Origin: Fervidicoccaceae archaeon
GTDB lineage: Archaea > Thermoproteota > Thermoprotei_A > Sulfolobales > Fervidicoccaceae
Assembly: GCA_038734945.1 (NCBI GenBank)
Contig: JAVYOA010000009.1
Location: 372,001 to 436,000 of the forward strand
Direction: 5' to 3'
Length of the DNA stretch: 64,000 nt
Shown: positions 42,605 to 56,937 of the stretch, piece after piece
How positions within the stretch are numbered: position 1 is the stretch's first letter
Layout: every line of letters starts with the position of its first letter
Notes under the pieces: model-generated
What the model was told of the DNA's origin: nothing
The model's input: only the letters and a program-made list of their open reading frames with translations
Database searches by the model: none
Translations under genes and position numbers: made by a program

Positions 42605-43732
42605 GTGAGTGAAAAAATGAAGGAAATTCCCTTGAAGAAGCTTCACGAACAATTGGGAGCAAATTTTGGAGAGTTTGCTGGCTGGCTGGTCCCAATGGAC
42701 TATGGCTCAGTAATTCAAGAACATCAGTCTGTAAGAAAATCAGTTGGCATATTTGACATCAGCCATATGGGTAGAATAGCAATCAGAGGAGAGGATTCAA
42801 TTTATTTGCTGGAAAAAACATTCACGAAAAAAATCCAGAAAACCAAAGAGGGATTCATGAGTGGTCCCACGCTGGCTCTCAATTATTTTGCCAGAGTTAT
42901 AGATGACGAAATGCTCTATAGGGTTAGCAATACGGAATTTCTGAGTGTTCCCAATGCTGCATATAAAGACAGAATGATTGGGCATTTGAATGAAATCGCG
43001 AAAAATGAGAAGCTGAGAGTAACAATAGACGATCTCACAGACAAATATGTAATGTTTGCTGTTCAGGGCCCCAAAAGCCCCGAAGCAATGGAAAAGATAG
43101 GGTTGAAGGACGCTCTAGAACTTAAACCCCTTCAGTTCATGATACAGAATGCTGACATGCAAAACGGGGTTTACTTGATAAGCAGAAGTGGTTGGACTGG
43201 TGAGGACGGATTCGAGCTGTGGATCAGGGTAGAAAAAGGAGAGGAATTCTATAGAAAATTACTAGAAGCAGGTGCTGTCCCAGTAGGAATTGCTGCTAGG
43301 GATTCTCTGAGGATGGAAATGGGATTTGTACTTGGTGGAAATGAATATGGGGAAGATCCTAGGCACTATCCGTGTGCTACATCTCTGAGATATGGAATGG
43401 GAGCCATTGATTGGGATAAAGTCGGATTCATTGGGGAAGAAACCCTTAGAGCCTGCAGAAGAGAGGGAGCTAGGTGGCTGAGATTTGGCTTCATCATGAG
43501 AAAAGAGCATAGTAGGTACATTCCAAGAAAAGGGAGCAAAATACTTGTGGAAGACATTGAAATAGGATGGATTACAAGCGGAAGTTTCAGCCCTGTTTTG
43601 GAAAGGGGAATTGCTCAGGGATACATTGACAGCAGATATGCGATTGTGGGAGAGCATGTTGAAATAGTGGATGAGAGAGGAAGGAAAGGAACAGCGAAAA
43701 TAGAGGACTTCCCGCTGATAAATAGAAAATAG
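42605..43732 (+). CDS. gcvT: Glycine cleavage system T protein (aminomethyltransferase)
   Basis: FAGWLVPMDY, FDISHMG, AVQGPKS, SRSGWTGEDGFE, ARDSLRME. Confidence 0.95.
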   Translation: MSEKMKEIPLKKLHEQLGANFGEFAGWLVPMDYGSVIQEHQSVRKSVGIFDISHMGRIAIRGEDSIYLLEKTFTKKIQKTKEGFMSGPTLALNYFARVIDDEMLYRVSNTEFLSVPNAAYKDRMIGHLNEIAKNEKLRVTIDDLTDKYVMFAVQGPKSPEAMEKIGLKDALELKPLQFMIQNADMQNGVYLISRSGWTGEDGFELWIRVEKGEEFYRKLLEAGAVPVGIAARDSLRMEMGFVLGGNEYGEDPRHYPCATSLRYGMGAIDWDKVGFIGEETLRACRREGARWLRFGFIMRKEHSRYIPRKGSKILVEDIEIGWITSGSFSPVLERGIAQGYIDSRYAIVGEHVEIVDERGRKGTAKIEDFPLINRK

Positions 43733-43819
43733 ACTTTTTCAAGCTTTTTTGGGAAACCATGTCCCGTCCCTTTTAAACTTTTCCTACAATGAATTTATAA
43801 TAGAGAACAATCGGTGTGA

Positions 43820-44560
43820 GTGGCAATGGTCACAAATTACACAGTTGATAACCTTGACAAATATGTAGGTCAAAAGGTAAAAGATCCCTACCAGAGGGTA
43901 ATTGGATCACTGGCAAGCCTATACAGCGACATAGACGGGAATGTAAAGGCTGTGGAAGTTCTATTTGGCGACTCTTACTTCAAGACAGTCCAAGCTGATA
44001 GAATCCTAATTCAGAAAGACGAAATAGTGCTTCTTCCAGATTGGAAGTACTCAGCACTTAGAGTCATTGAAAGACTAGAAAGAGCAAGAAGAAGAGCCAA
44101 GGCCCTTGATGATCTCTATGCTAAAGGAGAGATAGCAAGAAGCGCTTATGAGGAATTCAAAGGGCAGGTCTCAAGAGATCTAGATTCGTTGAAGAAGGAG
44201 GCAAATGAAGCGAAGGAAATGATAAAGAAGAGGATTGGTGAGCTCGAGGACCAAATAGTGGAGATAGAGAAGGCCATAACAGCTCTGAAAATGAGCTACA
44301 TTGCAGGAGAAATAGGAGAGAGAGGATACAAGCCAGCTGCTGATATATTGAGGCAGAACAAGGATAGAAACCTTGAAGAGAAAAACGAGGCAAAGAGAAT
44401 ACTCGATTTAATAGCAAAACTGGAAACACAGAACCTTGATATTGATGCGGTTCTGAAGGAAATATCTCCCTCAACCACCGAAGGAGTTCAAAAAGGAGCA
44501 GAGCAGCCAATAGTGGTGGAGCTTCACGAACAGCCTACTGCTCAGAGTGGAACAGCATAA
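43820..44560 (+). CDS. cdvA: Cell division protein CdvA
   Basis: GQKVKDPYQRVIG (PRC barrel), coiled coil, LKMSYIAGEI, C-terminal PIVVEL. Confidence 0.93.
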   Translation: MAMVTNYTVDNLDKYVGQKVKDPYQRVIGSLASLYSDIDGNVKAVEVLFGDSYFKTVQADRILIQKDEIVLLPDWKYSALRVIERLERARRRAKALDDLYAKGEIARSAYEEFKGQVSRDLDSLKKEANEAKEMIKKRIGELEDQIVEIEKAITALKMSYIAGEIGERGYKPAADILRQNKDRNLEEKNEAKRILDLIAKLETQNLDIDAVLKEISPSTTEGVQKGAEQPIVVELHEQPTAQSGTA

Positions 44561-44633
44561 CATGAGGAGAAAACACAAAATCACCGTAGCAACAGCTCTC
44601 CCAAAAAGTGGGGAGGGGTCTAGGTGTTAGAAT

Positions 44634-45545
44634 ATGTCTTCAGTCATTGATAGAGGAGGGAAAAAGGGAATACTGTCCTGGTTCAGAGGACTGCTAGGTG
44701 CGGAGTCAGATAGGAGAGCTGACTGGGAGGAAATGCTTCAGGACATAATGGTTAGGTTGAAGAACGAGCAGGACAAGTTTGAAGAACTGGAATATAGAAC
44801 AAAGAAGAGGATAGATGAGCTCTTTGCTAGGGCTGTTGATAATTTCAAGCTGATGAACTCTGCTACAAAGGAAGATGAGAGAGGCACCTATCAGAACCTA
44901 GGCAAGGTCTATGCGGAGGAAGTATATGAGCTGAGAAGCTTTCTGAAGGCAATCCGCTTCACAAAGATAAGCTTGGAAAGAGTAATTCAGAGGCTTCAAA
45001 CTGTAAAAGACATTCACGACTTTCACGCAGTCCTGGGTCCTGTAGCAAACATGCTAAATGGAGTGAAAACAGAAATATCTTCAATATTCCCGAAAGCAGG
45101 TGAAACCCTAGATGAGATAAATAGGCTAATAACCGACATAATTGTAACAACAACTTCGGGAAACCAGTACAATGCAAGCCACAACTTCCTTCAGAATGAA
45201 GATGTTGAGAGCGTGATAAAAGAAGCCTGGAAGCAGGCTGAGAACAGCGTTGAGGCCGAACTTCCTGAGCCAGAGAAGCTCAGACCTCAAAATGCTTCCC
45301 AGCGGGCTCAGCAGAAACAAGTAGAGAAAAAAGCTGTACAAGTTCCAATACAGACAGTTCCATCAAATTCCAATGAAGAACTTGAGCAGTTGGTGCTTGA
45401 GGAAATAAAGAGAAGCGGGGGAAAAATTTTCGTCACAGAAATATCAGCGAAGCTTGGGATTGATAAGGAGAAAGTCTATGAAGTTCTTTACAATCTGAGT
45501 AAGAAGGGCAAAATCAAGATAGCCTCTCCGGGAAGAACACAATAA
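44634..45545 (+). CDS. cdvB: ESCRT-III cell division protein CdvB with C-terminal wHTH
   Basis: Snf7-like helices, ELPEP MIM2-like motif, C-terminal winged helix; lies between cdvA and cdvC. Confidence 0.9.
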   Translation: MSSVIDRGGKKGILSWFRGLLGAESDRRADWEEMLQDIMVRLKNEQDKFEELEYRTKKRIDELFARAVDNFKLMNSATKEDERGTYQNLGKVYAEEVYELRSFLKAIRFTKISLERVIQRLQTVKDIHDFHAVLGPVANMLNGVKTEISSIFPKAGETLDEINRLITDIIVTTTSGNQYNASHNFLQNEDVESVIKEAWKQAENSVEAELPEPEKLRPQNASQRAQQKQVEKKAVQVPIQTVPSNSNEELEQLVLEEIKRSGGKIFVTEISAKLGIDKEKVYEVLYNLSKKGKIKIASPGRTQ

Positions 45546-45557
45546 TAATTTTTCGAG

Positions 45558-46694
45558 GTGATTTTTTTGGCTTTCCCATATTTACAGGAAATGGCAACTA
45601 GGTATGCCAGAGCAGCAGTAGCAGCTGATAAGGATGGAGACTATGATGCTGCCATTCAGAATTACAGGAAAGCCATAGAAATACTTACAAAAATAGTGAG
45701 AATGTATCCAGACAGTCCTCTCGTTTCCACTTATCTTGAAATGATAAAAAGCTATGAGAAAAGAATACAGCAGCTGCAGAATGATGCTGAAGCAGTTGGA
45801 GAATCCAGAACAAAGGGATCGGAAAAGAAGGATCTCTTAGAGGATATAGTTCTAGCGCAAAAACCAAACGTGAAGTTTGATGACATAGCAGATCTCAGGG
45901 ATGCCAAGCAAGCCATAACAGAGGCAATTATATATCCAATAAAGAGGCCAGACCTCTTCCCACTTGGATGGCCAAGGGGGATCCTCCTCTTTGGACCTCC
46001 AGGATGCGGAAAAACCATGCTAGCGGCAGCAGTTGCCAATGAAGTAAATGGCTATTTTCTCTATGTAGATGCTGCCAACATAATGTCCAAGTGGCTTGGA
46101 GAAGCTGAGAAAAACGTCAGCAAGATTTTCAAGTTTGCAAGAGAAAAAAACGAGGAAGGATCTCCGGTAATAATATTCATCGATGAGATTGACGCATTGC
46201 TGGGAACATTCTCTGGAGAAATAGGCGGCGAAGTTAGAGTGAGAAATCAATTCTTGAAGGAAATGGATGGAATTCAAGATAAAGATAAGAAATTCCATAT
46301 CTATGTAATAGGAGCGACGAATAAGCCATGGCAACTTGATGAAGCCTTCATAAGGAGATTCAACAAGAGAATATTCATACCACTTCCAGACAAGGAAGCT
46401 AGAATGCAGCTATTCAAGCTCTATACAAAGAATCTTCCTATTTCAAACGATATTGACTTCGACAAGCTGGTTGAGCAGACAGAAGGGTATACTGCAAGCG
46501 ATATTAGAGATGTAATCCAAGCAGCTCATATGAGAGTAATAAGAGAGTTCTTCGAGAAGAATCTAGGAAACGGAGAACCGAGAGCTATAAACATGGAGGA
46601 CTTCTTGGAAATATTGCGCATAAGGAAGCCCAGCGTTGATCCCCTCTATGTTAAGAGGTATGAAGCTTGGTTTGAGAAATTCAAGGCATTATAA
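45558..46694 (+). CDS. cdvC: Vps4-like AAA ATPase CdvC
   Basis: MIT domain, GWPRGILLFGPPGCGKT, SKWLGEAEK, FIDEID, ATNKPW. Confidence 0.95.
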   Translation: MIFLAFPYLQEMATRYARAAVAADKDGDYDAAIQNYRKAIEILTKIVRMYPDSPLVSTYLEMIKSYEKRIQQLQNDAEAVGESRTKGSEKKDLLEDIVLAQKPNVKFDDIADLRDAKQAITEAIIYPIKRPDLFPLGWPRGILLFGPPGCGKTMLAAAVANEVNGYFLYVDAANIMSKWLGEAEKNVSKIFKFAREKNEEGSPVIIFIDEIDALLGTFSGEIGGEVRVRNQFLKEMDGIQDKDKKFHIYVIGATNKPWQLDEAFIRRFNKRIFIPLPDKEARMQLFKLYTKNLPISNDIDFDKLVEQTEGYTASDIRDVIQAAHMRVIREFFEKNLGNGEPRAINMEDFLEILRIRKPSVDPLYVKRYEAWFEKFKAL

Positions 46695-46731
46695 CACGGA
46701 GGAGATCCCCCCAAATATTTCAGCAAATCCC

Positions 46732-46762
46732 GTTGAAAAAATTTCCATGCGGATTTTTCAAC
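46732..46762. terminator. Inverted repeat/hairpin between the convergent cdvC and DUF1464 operons
   Basis: GTTGAAAAA...TTTTTCAAC with inner TCC/GGA pairs. Confidence 0.45.
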
Positions 46763-46917
46763 TATTATACCTATTTCCTTTTATTGGAGCTAAGTGCTAA
46801 GCTGGGCTCTCTTTTGTTCTACTTGTCTCTGCTTATCCCAAGTCCTTACCCTATAAGCAGAAGGAAATTGTGCTCAGTTATGGTTCAAAAGGACTTAGGC
46901 ATTGTTCATAGCAATAC

Positions 46918-46971
46918 TCAGATACCCCAGAGAGGCTCATCGCCGAACTCACTCGGCATGACTCTCATCAT
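46918..46971 (-). ncRNA. Candidate C/D-box sRNA overlapping the DUF1464 stop codon
   Basis: ATGATGA (C) - 12 nt - GTGA (D'-like) - GCGATGA (C'-like) - 15 nt - CTGA (D), 54 nt in total; target not identified. Confidence 0.4.
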
Positions 46972-48121
46972 CGTTTCTGAATATCATTTCAAACTTTTCC
47001 TTCTTTAAGCTTTTCCTATATGCCTCAAAGTGCCTTTCAGCAACCTTTCTAAGATCTGGTATATATATGAAATCCATTACTGTTCCACCTGCTCTATCGA
47101 GCTTCATTTGTCTGAAGATAGATGTAAACCTTCCTCCGAGCAGTGCATCCCCCATCATTGCCATACCTTGTGCTGCCTCCTTCGAAGCAAAGCTTCCCTC
47201 CAGTCTAGGCCTGGTGAAAACTATATTCAAACCAAGCTCTTTCTTCAGAAAAAGTGAGAGCTCTGGGTTGCTCCACCTTCCGCTTAAAACTACAGGCTCT
47301 GTTCCACTCCCTCCCAAATAGTGAATTCCAGCCTTAATTGTTTGAAGCATATTTTTTGCATATGCTCTGCAGATCTCTCCTCTAGACTGAAAAACCTCAT
47401 ACATTGGAATATTACCACACGTCTCAAAAAGTCCCCCCTTCCACACAGAATTCCTTTTCCATCTCTTCCCAGCCACCACAATCTCTAGGTCTAGGGGACC
47501 AGCTGTCAGGAATCCAGGACCCAAGGATGTTCCGCCAAGACCTCCATATATATATCCGTTCTTCACTCTGATTAGAGCATTGTAACCAAACCCGAGCTCG
47601 AGGAGGAAGAAATCATTAATGCCATTCTCCCCAAGGACCCCCCTTAAGTAATGGGAAGCGATAAATGTCGAAGCTAATTTATCAGCTGTTCCCAAATCTA
47701 TTTTATTCACCTTGAAGGAAATTTCCACGGTGGAAAGCTGTTTAACTGAAGGGATATAGCAAGCTGGGGCTCCCTTTCTCCACAACTGAGTACCCAACTT
47801 ATACAGAGCTCTGTAGACATTAAAGCCAAGATCATTCTGCTTCTTCATCAAGAGGTATAGCGGAGTGAGGAGAAGAATTTCAGAGAAGAATATCTTTGGA
47901 TCCACAATATCATCGTTGCATACATAGGGGACTCCGTAGCCAGAAGGGCCAATAATTATATCAGCTTCCCCCTCCTCTCTCTTCAGCTCCTGAAGGAGAA
48001 TTTCAGGATTTGAAGCTATTTGCTCCGTTTCCATGCTTTTTTCCCAAACAACCCTTCCATCACTGAGGAGAACTATGTCAAAGCTCTTTGTACCAGGATC
48101 TATTCCTAAGCTCTTCACCAT
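46949..48121 (-). CDS. DUF1464 family protein (ASKHA-like fold)
   Basis: GIDPGTKSFD, GPSGYG, KIDLGTADK, ELGFGYN, KEAAQG. Confidence 0.88.
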   Translation of the reverse strand: MVKSLGIDPGTKSFDIVLLSDGRVVWEKSMETEQIASNPEILLQELKREEGEADIIIGPSGYGVPYVCNDDIVDPKIFFSEILLLTPLYLLMKKQNDLGFNVYRALYKLGTQLWRKGAPACYIPSVKQLSTVEISFKVNKIDLGTADKLASTFIASHYLRGVLGENGINDFFLLELGFGYNALIRVKNGYIYGGLGGTSLGPGFLTAGPLDLEIVVAGKRWKRNSVWKGGLFETCGNIPMYEVFQSRGEICRAYAKNMLQTIKAGIHYLGGSGTEPVVLSGRWSNPELSLFLKKELGLNIVFTRPRLEGSFASKEAAQGMAMMGDALLGGRFTSIFRQMKLDRAGGTVMDFIYIPDLRKVAERHFEAYRKSLKKEKFEMIFRNDDESHAE

Positions 48122-48932
48122 CTATCATTACCTCCCCATATACATTGAATGGATGAATTGACTCGAAGCTCGTTACTCTAACAGATATCCAGTCAGCCTT
48201 CAAAGATATTGAACTTTTAGCAAGCTGCCATCCAATTTTCCTGGCAAGGTCCTCGGCGAAGAGAGGAGTATTTATTATCTTTTTTATAAGCCTTTCCTCC
48301 TCATCTCGGGATAGATATACTTGCAGCTTTCCTGAAAAAGACTGGCTAATCAGGTCAATTAGCTCCATAGCATTTTCTAGAGACATGCTGTTTTTGTGAC
48401 TCTCTACTTTAACCTCTGCAAGTGCCCTCTGCATATGAGTAGGCGTTACATTCCAGTCAGTTTTTTCATAGAATTTGAATACCTCCTTTGCACATGGACA
48501 TGATATGGTTCCCTTCATAGAAACAGCGAGATGCCACCTCTCTTCCCCTGTCCTCTTTCTAGTTACTCCCAAACGTATGGGGATCTCCTGTCCATCTTTT
48601 GGAACTGAAAAAATTATTTTGATCTCAGCTGAGTTTGAATCAGGATGAGACGATAGAGCTCTCGCAGCAATGCGGGAAAGGGCATTTTCTATCCTCATGC
48701 ATTTTTCATCGAATGTCTCCAGCACATTAGAAACAAGCCTTGCAATGTGAACGCCCTTTTTGCTACCAGGGAGGGAGATCAGGACCGAGAGTCTTCCAGA
48801 TACATCCAAGCACGAGCTATCCCATTCCAAGCTAATTGGTATATACAAACTCCTAATTCCAGCTCTGTTAATATCCAAAGGATAAGCAGGAGGGTCTTCA
48901 TGAATATCTGGCGATGCCTGTTTAAAGCTCAT
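48078..48932 (-). CDS. mptA: GTP cyclohydrolase MptA/FolE2 family
   Basis: KGVHIAR, SCPCA, PTHMQR, FAEDLAR, FESIH. Confidence 0.85.
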   Translation of the reverse strand: MSFKQASPDIHEDPPAYPLDINRAGIRSLYIPISLEWDSSCLDVSGRLSVLISLPGSKKGVHIARLVSNVLETFDEKCMRIENALSRIAARALSSHPDSNSAEIKIIFSVPKDGQEIPIRLGVTRKRTGEERWHLAVSMKGTISCPCAKEVFKFYEKTDWNVTPTHMQRALAEVKVESHKNSMSLENAMELIDLISQSFSGKLQVYLSRDEEERLIKKIINTPLFAEDLARKIGWQLAKSSISLKADWISVRVTSFESIHPFNVYGEVMIDGEELRNRSWYKEL

Positions 48933-49335
48933 CGCTCTTCACTTCCACAAAATTGTTCTTTCCCTCATATAGCCTAACCGTAATTTTTCCATCGATTTTC
49001 TTCCGCAAATCCTTCAATATAGAAAGGGCAATGTATTCTGTAGTAGCATGTGGATAGTCAATTAGCTTAATATCTGTCCTAAATAGGCCACTAAGTTGAG
49101 TTTTTGAGATGTGGGAAGCAGGAAGGATCAATTTGTGGTCATATTCGGAAAGAACTTCTCTAGCTGCCTTTTTCAGAGTGCTGAAATCCATAATCATTCC
49201 AGTTTCAGCATTAATTTCTCCCTCAACTTCCAGCTCCAGTTCGAATGTGTGACCATGGAGAGACTCGCACTTTCCATTCTCTGACAATGTATAGTGAGAT
49301 GAATCAAAGGTAAGTCCCTTAATGCCTACTTTCAT
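48922..49335 (-). CDS. 6-pyruvoyl-tetrahydropterin synthase family protein (COG0720)
   Basis: FDSSH, CESLHGH, MIMDF, YDHK, TTEYIA, LYEG. Confidence 0.9.
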   Translation of the reverse strand: MKVGIKGLTFDSSHYTLSENGKCESLHGHTFELELEVEGEINAETGMIMDFSTLKKAAREVLSEYDHKLILPASHISKTQLSGLFRTDIKLIDYPHATTEYIALSILKDLRKKIDGKITVRLYEGKNNFVEVKSDEL

Positions 49336-50071
49336 GCATCTCAGCCTCCCATGGAAATGGAGAACATTCAATTAAACCGGAGAGAGGTATTTCCACATTT
49401 TCTCCCTTGCATTTCAACCATTCAACTAGAAGCTTCCCTATCCAGAACTTCCTCATCCTAGTGCTTTTCGGAAAGCTATTCCTTGAGGGTAAAACAGTTT
49501 CTCCAATGGAATAAACGCGTACATTTCTGGCTCCAAAGAAGAGAGCAGCGAACACGGATCTATCACCATCTGTGAATCCACCAAAATTAAAAAAAGGAGG
49601 TTGGGGATCCCTCTGAGTTGTAAAGAGAACTTTGCCCTTCAGCCCTCTGAGCTTCTCAATGAAATTGGATGCAGCTTGAAAATTGTCTCCATGAATGTGT
49701 CCAACAATCAATGAAATTTTACTCATTAATCCTTCATCAATTCCTGAAATTCCATCGAAGTCTGTAACTAGCATATCTGGGGTTCTCCTAAGTTTTTTCA
49801 CTGCTTTCCATAAAGCTGAATCTGCTACTACTAAGACCTCCCCCTCAATTCTCTCAATTATCTCCAGCTCAGGACCATTGCCAACTATCGCTACTTCCTT
49901 TCCCTCTATTAATTGAAAGCCGCGATTCAGTGCATCTAGATCATACTCTATCTTATTAGCAAGCATTTTTGCGGCAATGCTATCTTCTGAAAAATTGAGA
50001 GGGAGCTGATTAACAATCCAATTAAAAATTTTGCCATATTCCGAGCTTTCAAACAGATCTCTGCTTAGCAT
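49319..50071 (-). CDS. mptE: 6-hydroxymethyl-7,8-dihydropterin diphosphokinase MptE-like (DUF115)
   Basis: IVGNGP, VADSA, VTDFDG, HIHGDN, FGGFTDGDR. Confidence 0.88.
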   Translation of the reverse strand: MLSRDLFESSEYGKIFNWIVNQLPLNFSEDSIAAKMLANKIEYDLDALNRGFQLIEGKEVAIVGNGPELEIIERIEGEVLVVADSALWKAVKKLRRTPDMLVTDFDGISGIDEGLMSKISLIVGHIHGDNFQAASNFIEKLRGLKGKVLFTTQRDPQPPFFNFGGFTDGDRSVFAALFFGARNVRVYSIGETVLPSRNSFPKSTRMRKFWIGKLLVEWLKCKGENVEIPLSGLIECSPFPWEAEMHESRH

Positions 50072-51527
50072 TATCTACACCGTAGACTATAGAGGGCTTC
50101 AGTGTTTGGGGATGATTTGCTCTAACAAGATCTAGCTTCCTCGAAGAAGTATTGAGTGGAAGCTCCTTGATTTTTTCCCTATTTCTTTGGGCAATTGTAA
50201 CGAAATCCCTAAGTGCTTCCACATACATTTTAACGGTTTCAGCAGATTCTGTTTCTGTGAACTCGAACATCATCGCTTCATCCACAATTAATGGAAAGTA
50301 TATAGTTGGGGCATGAAGTCCCCTGTCAAGAAGGAACTTTGCAGCATCATCTGCTGTCGCTCCTATCTCCTCTGCCAGGCGCTTCAAGGATATAACTGCT
50401 TCATGCTTCCTAAATCTATTGGGATCATAGGGTAGCTCAATGATGTTCAGTTCTTTGAGGAGAGAGAGGAAATAATTAGTGTTCAATGAAGAATGCACAG
50501 CAACTTTCCATATATCCTCTCCATAAGCTAGAATGAAAGCATATGCATAGATCATGCCCGGTATATTTCCCAAGGTGCTCAATACATTCCCAATGCTTTT
50601 CTCTGGAGTCCTCCACACAAATTCTCCATTCTCCTCTTCAATTAAATAGCCTGGAAGATATTTTGCCAGCTCACCTTTAGCACAAACAGCCCCAGCTCCA
50701 GGTCCACCGCCACCATGGGGTGAACCAAAAGTCTTATGAAGATTCAAATGGACAATGTCAAAACCCATATCTCCTGGTCTAGCTATTCCAATTATCCCAT
50801 TCAAGTTAGCACCATCGTAATAAAGAAGACCTCCTGAGCTGTGAACTATGCTTGATATTTCCTTTATTTCCTCCTCAAACAAGCCAAGGGTGTTGGGATT
50901 AGTCAGCATGAGACCAGCAGTTTTCCTTCCTGCTGCATTCCTAAGAGCATTGACATCCACATTTCCCCTCTCATTTGTCTGTATTCTCACAACTTTGAAC
51001 CCACCCATTGCCGAGCTGGCAGGATTGCTTCCATGCGCACTATCAGGCACTATCATCTCATCTCTAAGCTCATCTTTTCTATCTCGATGATATGCTTTTA
51101 TCATGAGAACTCCGCTGAGCTCTCCAGAAGCTCCAGCAGGTGGCTGAAGGCTGCATGCATCCATTCCTGTTATTTCCTTGAACCACTCCTGAAGCTCATA
51201 GATAATCCTCAGCAAACCTCTCGCTCCCCCCGCTAAGAGAAGAGAGGGATGCATGTTTCTCAGCTTGCTGGACTGAAGGATCCTGGCAGCTATTTTTGGA
51301 TTATATTTCATTGTACATGAACCTAGAGGAACCGGTCCAACATCAATTCCGTAGGATATCTGACTCAGCCTAGTAAAGTGCCTGACAACCTCCAACTCGC
51401 TCAAGTTGGGAAGCGCTAGCTCTTTTCTCCTAAGAGATTCAGGTAATAGCTCTATTTCTTCCTTCTCTCTCTCAATTCTATATTCAAATAAGAGCTTTTC
51501 ATCCCATTTAGCCTGCCTAAATACCAT
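50049..51527 (-). CDS. gcvPB: Glycine dehydrogenase subunit 2
   Basis: PLGSCTMKYNP, SAHGSNPAS, TNPNTLG, PLP-lysine NLHKTF.SPHGGGGPG. Confidence 0.96.
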   Translation of the reverse strand: MVFRQAKWDEKLLFEYRIEREKEEIELLPESLRRKELALPNLSELEVVRHFTRLSQISYGIDVGPVPLGSCTMKYNPKIAARILQSSKLRNMHPSLLLAGGARGLLRIIYELQEWFKEITGMDACSLQPPAGASGELSGVLMIKAYHRDRKDELRDEMIVPDSAHGSNPASSAMGGFKVVRIQTNERGNVDVNALRNAAGRKTAGLMLTNPNTLGLFEEEIKEISSIVHSSGGLLYYDGANLNGIIGIARPGDMGFDIVHLNLHKTFGSPHGGGGPGAGAVCAKGELAKYLPGYLIEEENGEFVWRTPEKSIGNVLSTLGNIPGMIYAYAFILAYGEDIWKVAVHSSLNTNYFLSLLKELNIIELPYDPNRFRKHEAVISLKRLAEEIGATADDAAKFLLDRGLHAPTIYFPLIVDEAMMFEFTETESAETVKMYVEALRDFVTIAQRNREKIKELPLNTSSRKLDLVRANHPQTLKPSIVYGVDNAKQRSV

Positions 51528-52893
51528 TTGATAGCACCTCCCTCAGAGATGCTCCAAAAATTTCTATATCCTCTCTCTCATGAACTTCTGTAGCACATGA
51601 TATTCCTCCTTGAACAGTCATTGAGAAGGGAATTATTGATCTTTCTTTTACCATTCTCATGAAGATTTTCTTGCTATCTTTTCCAGAAGGAAAACGAAAT
51701 GCTATATTTTTGTAGTGCAGTGCCCTCGGATGAATGATTTCTAAACCGTTCTCGCTCAGCTTTTTCTTCAGTTCTTCTGTTAATTCCAGTATCTTTGAGC
51801 CCTCCTTTCTCAATCCCCTTGATCCTTTTAGAGCAAGGCTTACCAGTGCAGCTATTGCATTCAATGAAGCACCAGTTGTTATATTCGAAGTTGCCTTCTC
51901 TCTTCTTATATGTTGCTCCCTGCTCTGGAGAATCATAGCATAGCCTATATTTCCATCAGCATCAACGGTCTCGCCAATCAGTCTTCCTGGTAGATTTCTC
52001 AGCAGCTCTCTATCGTTCCTAATTCCCAATATTCCAAGTAGCATGCCTCCCCCATACAATGGAAGGCCCAGCGATTGCCCCTCTCCAACAACAATGTCTA
52101 CTCCAAGGTCTCCTGGAGGAGCGAGGATGCCTAGGGATGAAGGGTCTGAGAATGCAATTGCAATTGAGTTGGCATTATGCGCTTCCTGAATTATCTCAGC
52201 AGTTGTTTTTCTCACTTCTCCAGTATTTGAGGGATAATCAACAATTACTCCTGCACCTTTTTCATTCCTTATTTTCGATAATTCCTCAGAGTTTATCTCT
52301 CCTGTCTCTTCATCAAACGAGTATTCTACATAGGAAATTTCGTGACCTTGAAAATATGTTTTCAGGACGCTCTTGTATTCTTCAAAAAGGGTGCTGGGAA
52401 CCAAGATTTTTTTGTTCTTCTTCACCCTGACAGACATTAGCGATGCCTCTGCCAAAGCTGTGGCCCCGTCATACATGCCCGCATTTACTATCTCGACACC
52501 ATAAAGTACTGCCATAGCGCTTTGATATTCAAAAAGCATCTTGAGAAGCCCTTGAGAAACCTCTGGCTGATATGGAGTATAAGCCGTTAGAATCTCTCCT
52601 CTTGATATTATGGCATCAACTACTGGATGAGTGTAGTGAGGAGCAACAGGTCCCCCAGCAAAAATCCTGTATAGTGGGATATCCTCAACATCCATTAGAG
52701 AAGAAGCCATTTCCCTCTCAATGCTAATTGAAGATAGAGGGATCCCCCTCCCTACTTTGAGCTTTCTGTTGAGGAGAAATTCCCTTGGAATATCGGAAAA
52801 CAACTCCATTGGATCATTTATTCCTATTGTTTTGAGCATTTCTTCAATAATCTTTTCATCGTCATTGGGTATCCATGGATGAGCGGATCTCAA
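51517..52893 (-). CDS. gcvPA: Glycine dehydrogenase subunit 1
   Basis: HPWIP, TAYTPYQPEVSQG, MYDGATALAEA, REQHIRREKATSNI; TTG at 52893 after GGGGGG (ORF track starts at 53004). Confidence 0.95.
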   Translation of the reverse strand: MRSAHPWIPNDDEKIIEEMLKTIGINDPMELFSDIPREFLLNRKLKVGRGIPLSSISIEREMASSLMDVEDIPLYRIFAGGPVAPHYTHPVVDAIISRGEILTAYTPYQPEVSQGLLKMLFEYQSAMAVLYGVEIVNAGMYDGATALAEASLMSVRVKKNKKILVPSTLFEEYKSVLKTYFQGHEISYVEYSFDEETGEINSEELSKIRNEKGAGVIVDYPSNTGEVRKTTAEIIQEAHNANSIAIAFSDPSSLGILAPPGDLGVDIVVGEGQSLGLPLYGGGMLLGILGIRNDRELLRNLPGRLIGETVDADGNIGYAMILQSREQHIRREKATSNITTGASLNAIAALVSLALKGSRGLRKEGSKILELTEELKKKLSENGLEIIHPRALHYKNIAFRFPSGKDSKKIFMRMVKERSIIPFSMTVQGGISCATEVHEREDIEIFGASLREVLSNGI

Positions 52894-52997
52894 ATTTTTC
52901 CCCCCATTCGGAGCAAATATCACATGATAAAAAATCAAGGACAAGCCATAATAAATAAACCATAGAAACAATTTTTGATATTCGAGAGATGGTGAGG

Positions 52998-53444
52998 ATG
53001 TCAAGAATTAGCTGGAAGGACGTATTAGCAATATTACTCATAGTATCGATAGCTCTATTGCTCAAGCCAGCCCTCTCAGCTGTTTCAGGAACAACTACAC
53101 CTATAGCTGTAGTAAAGGGAAACAGCATGCTGCCTCTCTTGCGGGAAGGAGACATCGTATTTCTGCATCACGTTCCGCCGCAAGATATAGCAGTCGGCGA
53201 AGTAGTTGTCTATCAAAGTATTTATGGAGGATACATCATACACAGGGTCGTCAGCATCATTCAGACTCCAACTGGCATATTTTATGTCACAAAGGGAGAT
53301 AACAACCCCTCCGATGACAGCTTACTGGGGCAGTTCGTGGATGGTCCGGGAATACCTTATGATAGAATAGTGGGGGTAGTCTGGTCTCCATTCAACAAAA
53401 CATTTGTCATCCCTCTGATAGGGATAATTTCCATTGTTATATGA
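52998..53444 (+). CDS. Signal peptidase I (Sec11 type)
   Basis: VVKGNSMLP, IIHRV, TKGDNN..D. Confidence 0.93.
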   Translation: MSRISWKDVLAILLIVSIALLLKPALSAVSGTTTPIAVVKGNSMLPLLREGDIVFLHHVPPQDIAVGEVVVYQSIYGGYIIHRVVSIIQTPTGIFYVTKGDNNPSDDSLLGQFVDGPGIPYDRIVGVVWSPFNKTFVIPLIGIISIVI

Positions 53445-53483
53445 ATTATTGAAACAAGCTAGGAACATGTAATCACTGTTTAA

Positions 53484-55127
<1,644 letters not shown>

Positions 55128-55253
55128 AAATATATCCTACTCCTCTCTTTGTTTCATCTAAACATGTATCCTATCAATTTCCATTAATTTATAAACCGCA
55201 TCATTTAAAGGGTGTTCTAGCATAGAGATTAATGAAATGACAGGTGTGATGGG

Positions 55254-55856
55254 ATGCCTTCTAGAGGAAAAAACAATTCTCCTACATATAAAATCGAGAA
55301 CATTGTAGCCACTGTAAGCATAGATCAAAAACTTGATCTTCACGAAATTGAGCGTAGAGTGCCTCGCGTAGAGTACAATCCAGACCAATTTCCTGGTTTA
55401 GTATTCAGACTAGAGAGGCCAAAGATAACAGCACTGATATTCAAGTCTGGAAAAATGGTTGTGACAGGCTCCAAGAGCACAGCAGAGCTTATAAATTCAG
55501 TGAAGAGAATCATAAAGACCTTTGCTAACCATGGAATAAACATCTCCCATCAAGCACAAGTTCAAATACAGAATATTGTAGCCTCAGGTAATCTTGGGGT
55601 TGGAGTTAACCTGGAAGAAGCAGCCTACAAGCTCGAAAACATAATGTATGAACCAGAGCAGTTTCCTGGGCTCATCTATAGAATGACCAATCCATACGTC
55701 GTTCTCCTGATCTTCAGCAGTGGAAAAATGGTTATAACTGGAGCCAAAAGGGAAGAAGAAGTTGAGATGGCTGTTAGGAACATCTATAAAACGCTCTCCG
55801 ATTTGGATTGTTTAGTTGAAGATATAGAAGGGGAAAAAACAGAGGAGTTCTTTTAA
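55254..55856 (+). CDS. tbp: TATA-box binding protein
   Basis: Two repeats of NIVA..YxPxQFPGL..IFxSGKMVxTG. Confidence 0.98.
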
Positions 55857-55958
55857 AGATCTGAATCGCAAATTATTTTAACTTAAATCCTTTAGAAAGA
55901 GCTTAGAGGGCCCGTGGCTCAGCCTGGTAGAGCGGCGGAGGCCGGAGCCCGATACCCC

Positions 55959-55970
55959 TTTCCCCTTTTT
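55959..55970 (+). terminator. Pyrimidine/T-tract terminator candidate after the 5' tRNA half
   Basis: TTTCCCCTTTTT directly after the 12-nt complementary trailer. Confidence 0.55.
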
Positions 55971-56030
55971 CACAATGGCCACCTTGGGAACTAAAAAATT
56001 GCTTAATCCCTTCAATGGCTAAGTCATGAG

Positions 56031-56044
56031 CGAAAATTATATAA
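56031..56044 (+). promoter_or_regulatory. Internal BRE-TATA promoter for the 3' tRNA half
   Basis: CGAAAA-TTATATAA about 25 nt upstream of the GGGGTATCGGGC leader (56070). Confidence 0.7.
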
Positions 56045-56161
56045 TCTGGGTAGCTTATCCAGATCCATCGGGGTATCGGGCGAAGTCCGCCGAGGCTCTT
56101 AACCCGTAGGTCCCGGGTTCAAATCCCGGCGGGCCCGCCACAGAAATTGAGAGAAGGGCTC

Positions 56162-56180
56162 TTGGGGGATCATCCCCCAA
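56162..56180. terminator. Perfect 9-bp inverted repeat between the convergent tRNA-Lys and ABC ATPase genes
   Basis: TTGGGGGAT-C-ATCCCCCAA. Confidence 0.45.
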
Positions 56181-56187
56181 TCTGTTT

Positions 56188-56937
56188 TCAGCTTACCAAT
56201 GAGTAAATGAGATCTTCAAGAGCCTCAAAATCTTGAGACCTCCTGTTTCTAGGCCTAGGCAGATCCACCTTGATCTCCTTTGAGATTCTGCTCGGCCTTG
56301 GAGTTAGTATAACTATTCTATCTGCTAGAAATATGGCCTCGTCTACAGAGTGAGTTACCATTACTATCGCTTTTAGAGGTGTAATTCCGGACAACCAAAT
56401 GTCCAATATTTCAGCCCTCAGCGTCTCAGCAGTTAAGGGATCTAGGTTTGAAAAGGGCTCATCCATTAGGAGAATTTCTGGCTGGATGGCAAGTGCTCTA
56501 GCAAAGTTTACTCTCTGTCTCATCCCCCCACTTAGCTCGTGGGGATAAAGATATTCAGAACCAGATAGTCCAACTAGAGAAATATACCTGCGGGCCGTTT
56601 CAGTAGCTCTTTCTCTATCCAGCCCCAAGTTCTTGAGAGGAAGTGCGACATTTTCTAGAACATTCATCCAAGGAAGAAGAGAGGGGAACTGAAAGACGAA
56701 ACCCATTTTTGGCATTCTCCCCTCATTATATATTATCTCTCCACCACTGTAATTCTCCACTCCTGCTATGATTCTGAGCAATGTTGACTTTCCACAACCG
56801 GAAGGACCAAGAATTACAAGAAATTCTTTCTTGATATCCATCGTGATATCATCGATTACCTTTACTTTACCGTTCTCCGAAACGTACTCTTTTGAAATTT
56901 TTCTCAGAGATATCAATATTTGTTCCATGTTTATCAT
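56188..56937 (-). CDS. ABC transporter ATPase (NitT/TauT family)
   Basis: GPSGCGKST, LSGGMRQR, LLMDEPF, VTHSVDEA. Confidence 0.93.
   Translation of the reverse strand: MINMEQILISLRKISKEYVSENGKVKVIDDITMDIKKEFLVILGPSGCGKSTLLRIIAGVENYSGGEIIYNEGRMPKMGFVFQFPSLLPWMNVLENVALPLKNLGLDRERATETARRYISLVGLSGSEYLYPHELSGGMRQRVNFARALAIQPEILLMDEPFSNLDPLTAETLRAEILDIWLSGITPLKAIVMVTHSVDEAIFLADRIVILTPRPSRISKEIKVDLPRPRNRRSQDFEALEDLIYSLVS

What the first reader, a model, noticed from the sequence alone, without database searches (positions are those of the whole stretch)
55908..56140. Candidate split (trans-spliced) tRNA-Lys(CUU): adjacent halves, the 3' half with its own promoter
Seen: the 5' exon ends at G30 (55938) and the 3' exon starts at G31 (56095). 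The junctions form a BHB motif: AGAG(21-24)/CTCT(32-35), central helix CGGC/GCCG, bulges GG|A and AG|G. The trailer GCCCGATACCCC (55947-55958) is exactly complementary to the leader GGGGTATCGGGC (56070-56081). The 156-nt spacer is AT-rich, with a T-tract right after the trailer and a BRE-TATA (CGAAAATTATATAA, 56031-56044) about 25 nt before the leader. Established, from memory: split tRNAs are rare, known from Nanoarchaeum, Caldivirga and a few Desulfurococcales, including a Lys(CUU) in Staphylothermus. Inference: the halves are transcribed separately and joined in trans by the splicing endonuclease and ligase. Their collinear order suggests a recent split or an intron-to-split intermediate. 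Standard tRNA scans may miss or mis-call it.
Basis: partly seen in the sequence, partly recalled or inferred. Interest (0 to 1): 0.9.

Follow-up and report, generated by a model that had tools for sequence, protein, structure and literature searches.

The report
Split lysine tRNA gene, halves adjacent
The only gene for one of this hot-spring archaeon's two lysine tRNAs is written in two neighbouring pieces that each appear to have their own start signal, a known but rare arrangement whose relatives show how one tRNA gene can break into two scattered ones.

Summary
Window 55908-55938 and 56095-56140 are the two exons of the genome's only tRNA-Lys(CUU). They join at position 30/31, with a canonical bulge-helix-bulge and a perfect 12-bp trailer/leader helix. 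The 156 nt between them carry an oligo-T run and a BRE/TATA.

The decisive evidence is comparative. The same BRE/TATA, at the same 25-nt distance from the same leader, sits in front of the 3' half in two species of the same genus. There the halves are unlinked: 9 kb apart on opposite strands in one, on separate contigs in the other. Each of those species differs from this genome by a different inversion with one breakpoint inside the spacer. The adjacent form is therefore the ancestral arrangement of the genus. The halves were probably already separate transcription units before they were moved apart.

No RNA data could be obtained, so separate transcription here is inferred, not shown. Some read-through with cis-splicing may coexist.

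This is a new member of a known kind. Staphylothermus and Nanoarchaeum have a Lys(CUU) split at 30/31, and Aeropyrum pernix has adjacent collinear Asp(GUC) halves (Chan, Cozen, Lowe 2011). Earlier notes of this scan reported the Staphylothermus-type split on other genomes. What is new is the lineage and the series from no intron to scattered halves within one family.

The parts
55254..55856 (+). TATA-box binding protein gene, upstream neighbour of the 5' half. The linkage is kept in G001, G002, G004 and G005.
   Evidence: Pfam PF00352, E 7.9e-65; tblastn synteny
55868..55883 (+). BRE/TATA-like promoter of the 5' half (GCAAATTATTTTAACT). It ends 24 nt before G1.
   Evidence: 9.2 bits on the tRNA-promoter matrix of this genome. 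23 of 42 other tRNAs have a gap of 21-25 nt.
55908..55938 (+). 5' exon of tRNA-Lys(CUU), G1 to G30 (acceptor 5' strand, D arm, 5' strand of the anticodon stem)
   Evidence: identical in G001, G002, G004 and G006
55939..55958 (+). Trailer of the 5' half: third bulge base A, short h' pairs, internal loop, then the 12-nt helix strand GCCCGATACCCC (55947-55958)
   Evidence: pairs checked one by one; cofold
55959..55970 (+). Oligo-T tract TTTCCCCTTTTT, the likely terminator of the 5' half transcript
   Evidence: Read from the sequence. A T run of 4 or more lies 19-28 nt after G30 in 4 of 6 genomes with split halves. Function is inferred.
55971..56030 (+). Unconserved middle of the spacer. The inversion breakpoints of both G001 and G002 fall here.
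   Evidence: alignments A1 and A2; tblastx synteny; no Rfam match
56031..56047 (+). BRE/TATA of the 3' half (CGAAAATTATATAATCT). The predicted start is near 56065-56070.
   Evidence: 10.6 bits, above 15 of 42 tRNA promoters of the genome. Block invariant in G000, G001 and G002 while both flanks diverge.
56070..56094 (+). Leader of the 3' half: 12-nt helix strand GGGGTATCGGGC (56070-56081), h' pairs, central-helix strand GCCG (56089-56092), bulge bases AG
56095..56140 (+). 3' exon, G31 to A76: anticodon CUU at 56098-56100, T arm, acceptor 3' strand, encoded CCA
   Evidence: identical in G001, G002, G004 and G006
56188..56937 (-). ABC transporter ATPase gene, convergent downstream neighbour of the 3' half. 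The linkage is kept in G001, G002 and G004.
   Evidence: Pfam PF00005; tblastn

Best explanation
This is a functional split tRNA-Lys(CUU) gene whose two halves still lie side by side on the same strand.

The proposed pathway has four steps.
1. The 5' half is transcribed from the promoter at 55868-55883. It ends mostly at the oligo-T run at 55959-55970.
2. The 3' half is transcribed from its own BRE/TATA at 56031-56047, starting near 56067.
3. The two RNAs pair through the 12-bp trailer/leader helix, the BHB helices and the 7-bp acceptor stem.
4. The heteromeric splicing endonuclease cuts both 3-nt bulges (after G30 and before G31), and RtcB joins the exons.

Shown here: the anatomy, the pairing, the conservation of the promoter and the presence of the enzymes. 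Inferred: the use of the internal promoter and of the terminator in this genome, and therefore the share of trans-splicing against cis-splicing.

In evolutionary terms, this genome keeps the ancestral adjacent stage. Sister species scattered the halves from it by inversions that break inside the spacer.
For: Anatomy: every helix is complete. It is the only Lys(CUU) gene in a 99.95% complete genome, and AAG makes up 58% of lysine codons, 6437 of 11015.

Promoter:
- The site scores 10.6 bits, above 15 of 42 tRNA promoters of the genome, although those were the training set.
- It ends 22 nt before the leader helix. The modal gap to a tRNA 5' end is 21-25 nt in 23 of 42.

Orthology:
- In G002 the promoter plus leader plus 3' half aligns from query base 124 (window 56031) onward at 88% identity. 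Its 5' half lies 9 kb away on the other strand.
- In G001 the halves are on different contigs.
- In the three-way alignment the block CGAAAATTATAT-A is invariant. The 56 positions (of the first sequence) before it have 12 invariant columns, and the 22 between it and the leader have 7.
- All six genomes with split halves, including one whose coordinates equal those published for S. hellenicus, have a promoter-like site ending 46-52 nt before G31.

Covariation: the trailer/leader helices of G004, G006 and G027 have unrelated sequences but pair over 12 or more bp.

Synteny:
- G002 equals this genome with window about 46970-55960 inverted.
- The G001 contigs fit an inversion of C9 about 428030-437700.
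- Both have a breakpoint between 55960 and 56030.

Enzymes: two PF01974 ORFs of 197 and 167 aa, and one RtcB.

Contrast: the genome's other long intron (108 nt, in tRNA-Pro(CGG)) is G+C-rich. The best matrix hits over the gene and its flanks all lie upstream of the gene, none inside the intron.

Precedent: A. pernix Asp(GUC) has adjacent collinear halves with an internal promoter, and the separate halves were seen on northern blots (PMC3218864, section 5 read).
Against: - There is no RNA evidence. The two RNA runs laid gave 0 reads, with only about 3% of each run read.
- The halves are collinear and 156 nt apart, so a read-through precursor would fold into the same BHB and be spliced in cis.
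- The T run is only five T, and such terminators can leak. In A. pernix, RT-PCR detected a rare read-through product.
- The promoter score is middling.
- At 37 C the nearest-neighbour minimum-energy fold is not the BHB: -75.4 against -62.5 kcal/mol, a register shift of the central helix. The G027 pair, at the published S. hellenicus coordinates, shows the same.
- G001 and G027 lack a T run of 4 or more after the trailer.
Confidence: 0.72

Rival explanations
1. It is an ordinary but unusually long cis intron. One transcript from the upstream promoter runs through the T tract and is spliced in cis. The internal BRE/TATA is silent, minor or a relic.
For: The halves are on the same strand, in the right order and only 156 nt apart. 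ARAGORN models the gene as a tRNA with an intron. In 46 of the 56 stretches other species genomes gave to one motif search, Lys(CUU) has a plain cis intron of 13-32 nt at this same 30/31 site. A rare read-through product was seen for A. pernix Asp.
Against: The BRE/TATA is kept almost unchanged while all surrounding spacer sequence has diverged beyond recognition between species whose proteins are 79-90% identical. It is the same element that must drive the 3' half in G001 and G002. An oligo-T run follows the trailer directly. At 156 nt the stretch is five times the longest cis intron seen at this site. It also exceeds the archaeal range of 11-129 nt quoted in PMC3218864. Two independent inversions through the spacer survived, which is easier if the halves were already independent.
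Confidence: 0.22
2. The adjacency is secondary. Dispersed halves were brought back together by rearrangement, or the join is an assembly artefact.
For: Genomes G001, G002, G004 and G006 of the same family all have dispersed halves.
Against: G001 and G002 each differ from this genome by one different inversion, and from each other by two. This arrangement is therefore the median of the three. TBP-5' half and 3' half-ABC ATPase linkages are kept in g1 and g3, as expected if both were once one locus. An intron-free relative, G005, has TBP followed by the intact tRNA in the same orientation. An independent contig in run X3 spans the spacer at flank-like depth.
Confidence: 0.04
3. It is a decaying pseudogene, with AAG read by tRNA-Lys(UUU) alone.
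For: An intact tRNA-Lys(UUU) lies at C9:43078-43152. No expression data exist.
Against: Both exons are identical to those of four relatives. All stems, the BHB and the 12-bp helix are intact. AAG is the majority lysine codon at 58%.
Confidence: 0.02

Closest known systems
Split tRNA-Lys(CUU) of Staphylothermus marinus and S. hellenicus (Chan, Cozen, Lowe 2011, PMC3218864; passages and section 5 read)
   Same: Same tRNA and same junction at 30/31. The last six leader bases (GCCGAG) are the same, so the BHB is the same. A G+C-rich trailer/leader helix is present: 13 nt there, 12 here. The promoter sits at the same distance before the 3' exon, 46 against 47 nt on my matrix.
   Different: There the halves are 4.5-4.8 kb apart with genes between them; here they are 156 nt apart with nothing between. 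The helix sequences are unrelated. The lineage differs: a different GTDB-type family. The record title of a locus matching G002 reads 'Fervidicoccaceae'.
[quoted passage not shown]
   Same: Two halves lie on one strand, separated by a little over 100 nt (121 there, 156 here). A BRE/TATA inside the 'intron' is placed to give a G+C-rich leader of 20-25 nt. A BHB is followed by a helix of 12-14 bp. [quoted passage not shown]
   Different: It is a different tRNA, and the junction is at the canonical 37/38 site. For A. pernix, northern blots and RT-PCR show the separate halves; here there is no RNA evidence. Here sister species with dispersed halves give the direction of evolution. For A. pernix the paper had no such close relatives.
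Split tRNA-Lys(CUU) of Nanoarchaeum equitans (Randau et al. 2005, as cited in PMC3218864 Table 1)
   Same: Same tRNA and same 30/31 junction.
   Different: The halves are about 70 kb apart on opposite strands, in a genome with six split tRNAs. Here only this one was recognised.
Short cis introns at 30/31 of tRNA-Lys(CUU) in Desulfurococcales/Sulfolobales genomes
   Same: Same insertion site and the same GCCGAG 3' end of the intervening sequence. 46 of 56 stretches have introns of 13-32 nt.
   Different: Those introns are too short to hold a terminator and a promoter, and they have no long trailer/leader helix.
Model of tRNA gene disruption in Caldiarchaeum subterraneum (Sugahara et al. 2012, PMC3293823; abstract read)
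   Same: It also infers intron gain and scattering of tRNA pieces from variants among close relatives.
   Different: There a 1.8-kb mobile element with a recombinase lies between the pieces. Here no element or repeat was found at any breakpoint, and the change is a plain inversion.

Membership tests
Archaeal split (trans-spliced) tRNA genes | Two pieces that together give a complete cloverleaf with all stems | tested here: met
   Acceptor 7/7, anticodon stem 5/5 (read), T stem 5/5, anticodon CUU, CCA encoded
Archaeal split (trans-spliced) tRNA genes | Canonical hBHBh' motif at the junction (two 3-nt bulges, 4-bp central helix) | tested here: met
   h 4/4, H 4/4, bulges GG|A and AG|G. It is not the minimum-energy fold at 37 C (-62.5 against -75.4 kcal/mol), which is also true of the G027 pair at the published S. 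hellenicus coordinates.
Archaeal split (trans-spliced) tRNA genes | G+C-rich complementary trailer and leader that bring the halves together | tested here: met
   12/12 perfect pairs at 55947-55958 with 56070-56081. Helices with unrelated sequences in G004, G006 and G027 keep the pairing.
Archaeal split (trans-spliced) tRNA genes | Own promoter in front of the 3' half at the usual distance | tested here: met
   Met at sequence level only: 10.6-bit BRE/TATA, conserved in G001 and G002, ending 46-52 nt before G31 in six genomes. Activity was not tested.
Archaeal split (trans-spliced) tRNA genes | Halves encoded at separate loci, so that one transcript cannot hold both | tested here: not met
   The halves are on the same strand, 156 nt apart. 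This is met in sister species G001 and G002. The published A. pernix case also fails this feature and is still counted as split.
Archaeal split (trans-spliced) tRNA genes | Separate half-sized precursor RNAs observed | not testable with these tools
   No RNA holder was listed. Two metatranscriptome runs gave 0 reads on the stretch.
Archaeal split (trans-spliced) tRNA genes | No intact copy of the same tRNA elsewhere in the genome | tested here: met
   ARAGORN with introns finds one Lys(ctt) among 43 tRNAs. Of 10 anticodon-loop-like motif hits genome-wide, only this one is followed by a T arm. Genome completeness is 99.95%.
Archaeal split (trans-spliced) tRNA genes | Endonuclease able to cut BHBs at non-canonical sites, and an RNA ligase | tested here: met
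   Two PF01974 ORFs (197 and 167 aa) fit a two-subunit enzyme; one RtcB of 483 aa. The subunit roles were not tested.
tRNA genes with a cis intron at 30/31 | Exons contiguous on one strand, separated by a short intron that forms a BHB | tested here: inconclusive
   The exons are contiguous and a BHB is present. But 156 nt compares with 13-32 nt in 46 other species stretches and with the published archaeal range of 11-129 nt.
tRNA genes with a cis intron at 30/31 | No transcription signals inside the intron | tested here: not met
   An oligo-T run and a conserved BRE/TATA lie inside it.

The most novel reading that the evidence does not exclude
This genome preserves the otherwise missing middle step of tRNA gene splitting. 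A short intron at 30/31 grew a terminator and a promoter while the halves were still adjacent. That made the spacer a place where the chromosome can break without harm. Two sister species then inverted about 9-10 kb on opposite sides, each through these same roughly 70 nt, and a sister genus moved the halves 88 kb apart. If so, one family holds the whole series: no intron, short intron, adjacent independent halves, scattered halves. The spacer may also be a true recombination hot spot and not just a tolerated site.
Probability: 0.5. Interest if true: 0.65.

Novelty: new member of a known kind. Interest (0 to 1): 0.52.

Why it matters
Whether split tRNA genes are relics of an ancient two-piece tRNA or late products of genome rearrangement is a long-running debate. 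The published adjacent case (A. pernix Asp) had no close relatives to show direction.

Here one genus offers three arrangements that differ by single inversions through the spacer. The family adds a short-intron form and an intron-free form. That makes the 'late split through an intron' route directly testable.

The locus also gives a clean system for asking how much of a tRNA is made in cis and how much in trans when both are possible.

On the practical side, default tRNA scans miss the gene. Genomes of this group would then be annotated as lacking tRNA-Lys(CUU).

Tried and rejected
- Expression: no RNA holder was listed for the stretch. Two metatranscriptome runs from the study of a partial DNA holder gave 0 reads, with about 3% of each run read. 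This is no test either way.
- Rfam at E up to 5 on 55850-56200: only chance-level hits, and no C/D-box or other family in the spacer.
- The sigma-70 and intrinsic-terminator scan does not suit an archaeon. It found only the hairpin at 56162-56180.
- Repeats that might have mediated the inversions: blastn-short of the locus against both distal breakpoint regions gave nothing better than 13 nt with one mismatch, E 0.43.
- A second adjacent split tRNA: the 108-nt intron of tRNA-Pro(CGG) has no internal promoter-like site and no T tract.
- More adjacent cases elsewhere:
  - The genome-contig scan gave 56 stretches, none with a 5' exon 33-405 nt upstream.
  - None of the 10 stretches without a 5' exon directly upstream holds one anywhere in its locus.
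  - The metagenome scan gave 2 contigs, both G001-like and without a 5' half within 400 nt.
  - The own genome and very near ones may be left out of those collections.
- Locating the 5' half on the 177-kb metagenome contig behind L124: the record is not held. The single-inversion reading for G001 therefore rests on two short contigs.
- Tree: the careful search did not finish in 300 s. The quick single-gene CTP synthase tree was used, and it leaves G006 and the order within the genus unresolved.
- Literature: three full-text searches found no paper linking Fervidicoccus with split tRNAs. Subscription papers, such as the F. fontis genome paper, are outside the library. The supplement of PMC3218864 (Figure S2, Tables S1 and S2) was not opened.

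Full report
**What is there**

Window 55908-56140 (+) holds a complete tRNA-Lys(CUU) in two pieces.
- G1-G30 is 55908-55938.
- G31-A76 is 56095-56140, with the CCA encoded.
- The intervening stretch is 156 nt.

Default ARAGORN and Rfam at gathering score see nothing here. A whole-genome Rfam tRNA search lists 41 tRNAs but not this one.

I checked each pair by script:
- Acceptor stem 7/7 and T stem 5/5.
- Outer BHB helix AGAG/CUCU 4/4.
- Central helix CGGC/GCCG 4/4.
- 3-nt bulges GG|A and AG|G on opposite strands.
- Three pairs of h'.
- A perfect 12-bp helix between trailer 55947-55958 and leader 56070-56081.

'AT-rich' is only mildly true: the spacer core is 38.7% G+C, the window 40.7% and the exons 71.4%.

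**Is it the working gene?**

It is the only Lys(CUU) gene found in a genome rated 99.95% complete. Of ten anticodon-loop-like motif hits genome-wide, only this one is followed by a T arm. AAG is the majority lysine codon: 6437 of 11015 in 336 long open frames.

The genome encodes two ORFs with the tRNA-intron endonuclease domain, 197 and 167 aa. This fits the two-subunit crenarchaeal enzyme that accepts BHBs at non-canonical positions; that attribution rests on established knowledge, not on a test here. The genome also encodes one RtcB ligase.

A DNA contig from another sample spans 55914-56116 without a difference, at the depth of the flanks. The adjacency is therefore real.

**Transcription signals**

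I learned a 16-nt matrix from the 70 nt upstream of the 42 other tRNAs ARAGORN found in this genome. It recovers an RAAAA-nn-TTWWWAA element, a BRE plus TATA. The element ends 21-25 nt before the mature 5' end in 23 of 42.

On the + strand of 55840-56140 the two best sites are these:
- 56032-56047 at 10.6 bits. It ends 22 nt before the leader helix.
- 55868-55883 at 9.2 bits. It ends 24 nt before G1.

The internal site beats 15 of the 42 training promoters. Sites of 10 bits or more occur once per 3.7 kb of strand genome-wide. 211 of 20000 shuffles of the spacer core reach 10.6 bits anywhere.

Directly after the trailer comes TTTCCCCTTTTT. That archaeal RNA polymerase terminates at oligo-T is established knowledge, not tested here.

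By contrast, the genome's second-longest intron (108 nt, in tRNA-Pro(CGG), outside the window) is G+C-rich. It has no T tract and no promoter-like site.

**Relatives decide the reading**

A search of 40 related species genomes with the 233-nt locus, followed by reading of the loci, gave a graded series.

| Genome | Group | State of tRNA-Lys(CUU) |
|---|---|---|
| G005 | same family, genus g4 | no intron |
| G003 | same family, genus g2 | 26-nt cis intron at 30/31 |
| G009, G021, G031 | family f3 | cis introns of 20-22 nt at 30/31 |
| G000 | this genome, genus g1 | adjacent halves, 156 nt apart |
| G002 | genus g1 | halves 9 kb apart on opposite strands |
| G001 | genus g1 | halves on different contigs |
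| G004 | genus g3 | halves 88 kb apart |
| G006 | genus g5 | halves on different contigs |
| G027 | family f11 | split, at the coordinates printed for Staphylothermus hellenicus in Chan et al. 2011 |

The family holds only eight species genomes.

In G001 and G002 the exons, the trailer helix strand and the leader are the same as here, apart from three single-base changes. One of these turns a G-C pair into G-U.

In the three-way alignment upstream of the 3' exon, the block CGAAAATTATAT-A is invariant. It lies 25 nt before the leader helix in this genome and in G002; in G001 the run of G that opens the helix is one base longer, so the count is 25 or 26. The 56 positions (of the first sequence) before it have 12 invariant columns, and the 22 between it and the leader have 7. 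That is the pattern of a promoter under selection in all three lineages. In G001 and G002 it must be the promoter of the 3' half, because no 5' half lies upstream.

Across six genomes with split halves, the best promoter-like site ends 46-52 nt before G31. T runs of 4 or more follow the trailer in 4 of these 6.

The trailer/leader helices of G004, G006 and G027 have unrelated sequences. They still pair over 12 or more bp in cofolds that give the same overall architecture in 5 of 6 genomes.

**Direction of evolution**

tblastx of the relatives' loci against this genome shows the following.

For G002:
- It is collinear with window 43097-46694.
- It is inverted across 55880 down to 46973.
- It is collinear again from 56030.
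- That is one 9-kb inversion with a breakpoint between the oligo-T run and the BRE/TATA.

For G001:
- In one contig, the 5' half is followed by C9 437651 down to 434782.
- In the other contig, C9 440203 down to 437779 is followed by the 3' half and the ABC ATPase gene.
- Both contigs fit one inversion of about 9.7 kb on the other side, again with a breakpoint in the spacer.
- This rests on two short contigs and is not closed.

This genome differs from each sister by one inversion, and the sisters differ from each other by two. The adjacent arrangement is therefore the median, and the parsimonious ancestor of the genus.

The linkages TBP-5' half and 3' half-ABC ATPase also hold in G004 of genus g3. 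Intron-free G005 has TBP followed by the intact tRNA in the same orientation.

A quick single-gene CTP synthase tree gave these SH-aLRT supports:

| Grouping | Support |
|---|---|
| family monophyly | 99 |
| g1 with g3 | 100 |
| g2 with g4 | 87 |

It leaves G006 and the order inside the genus unresolved. The adjacent stage is thus probably older than the g1/g3 split, so the split is not recent.

No repeat or mobile element was found at the breakpoints.

**How common is this?**

A motif scan of species genomes for the leader end plus the start of the 3' exon gave 56 stretches.
- 46 have the 5' exon directly upstream, with introns of 13-32 nt.
- 10 have none within 405 nt. One of these is not evaluable because it is cut at the contig end.
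- None of the 10 holds a 5' exon anywhere in its locus.

So no other genome in that set has halves 100-400 nt apart. The own genome may be left out of that collection. A metagenome scan with the genus-specific leader gave two contigs, both of the G001 type.

**Mechanism, with what is shown and what is inferred**

Shown:
- the two exons
- the BHB
- the 12-bp helix and its covariation
- the conserved BRE/TATA and its spacing
- the oligo-T run
- the enzymes
- the synteny

Inferred:
- The 5' half transcript stops at the T run.
- The 3' half starts near 56067.
- The two RNAs anneal. The cofold gain over the monomers is -16.1 kcal/mol at 37 C, -13.8 at 70 C and -12.1 at 85 C.
- The endonuclease cuts both bulges and RtcB joins G30 to G31.

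A read-through transcript would fold the same way and be spliced in cis. Both routes may run side by side, as reported for Aeropyrum pernix Asp(GUC). There northern blots show the halves, and only RT-PCR finds the full precursor (PMC3218864, section 5).

The nearest-neighbour minimum-energy fold at 37 C is a register-shifted variant and not the BHB (-75.4 against -62.5 kcal/mol). The G027 pair, at the published S. hellenicus coordinates, behaves the same way.

No transcript data could be had.

**Comparison with the known**

Split tRNA-Lys(CUU) at 30/31 is published for Staphylothermus and Nanoarchaeum. Adjacent collinear halves with an internal promoter are published for A. pernix Asp(GUC) (review PMC4390854, passages). 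This locus combines the two in another family.

A record title matching G002 reads 'Fervidicoccaceae'. Three full-text searches found no paper on split tRNAs in that group.

Earlier notes of this scan describe Staphylothermus-type split Lys(CUU) genes on other genomes. They agree with this reading and were not used as evidence.

**Verdict**

It is a new member of a known kind. Its added value is evolutionary: one genus shows the adjacent form as ancestral, with two independent inversions through the same spacer. I put the confidence that the 3' half is independently transcribed here at about 0.7.

Noticed in passing
G000:C9:44116-44317 (outside the window): tRNA-Pro(CGG) with a 108-nt G+C-rich intervening sequence, the second longest in the genome. 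It has no T tract and no promoter-like site inside. It contains GATGA and CTGA motifs, so it may hold a C/D-box small RNA.
   Followed up: partly
window 56156-56161, and the 3' flanks of Lys tRNA genes in L002, L003, L004, L006, L015, L025 and L027: A GGGCTC(C/T) motif lies about 10-20 nt downstream of tRNA-Lys genes in several families, both split and unsplit. It also lies downstream of tRNA-Pro(CGG) in this genome. Its meaning is unknown.
   Followed up: no
window 56162-56187: Hairpin TTGGGGGATCATCCCCCAA followed by TCTGTTTTC, between the 3' half and the convergent ABC ATPase gene. Similar G5/C5 hairpins occur at the same place in G001 and G002. It is possibly a shared terminator for both directions.
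   Followed up: no
L060 (record titled Pyrobaculum sp. WP30): A Lys(CUU)-type 3' exon start, preceded by an A-rich stretch and a leader-like sequence. No 5' exon lies within 400 nt on either side, and there is a second insertion in the T arm. It may be another split or multi-intron Lys(CUU) in a distant lineage.
   Followed up: no
window 46694-46973 and G000:C9:437651-437779: These are the distal breakpoints of the two inversions that separate G002 and G001 from this genome. Both are intergenic. No repeat is shared with the tRNA spacer.
   Followed up: partly
window 55938-56102, DNA runs X3 and X4: Contigs of other community members join the same exons through other short inserts, such as a 13-letter one (tables 5 and 5c). 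Short 30/31 introns of Lys tRNAs are therefore common in these hot-spring communities.
   Followed up: no
G000 whole genome: ARAGORN with introns finds 43 tRNAs but none for Gln, Trp or the Thr anticodons UGU and CGU. Further tRNAs with non-canonical introns or splits probably remain unrecognised.
   Followed up: no
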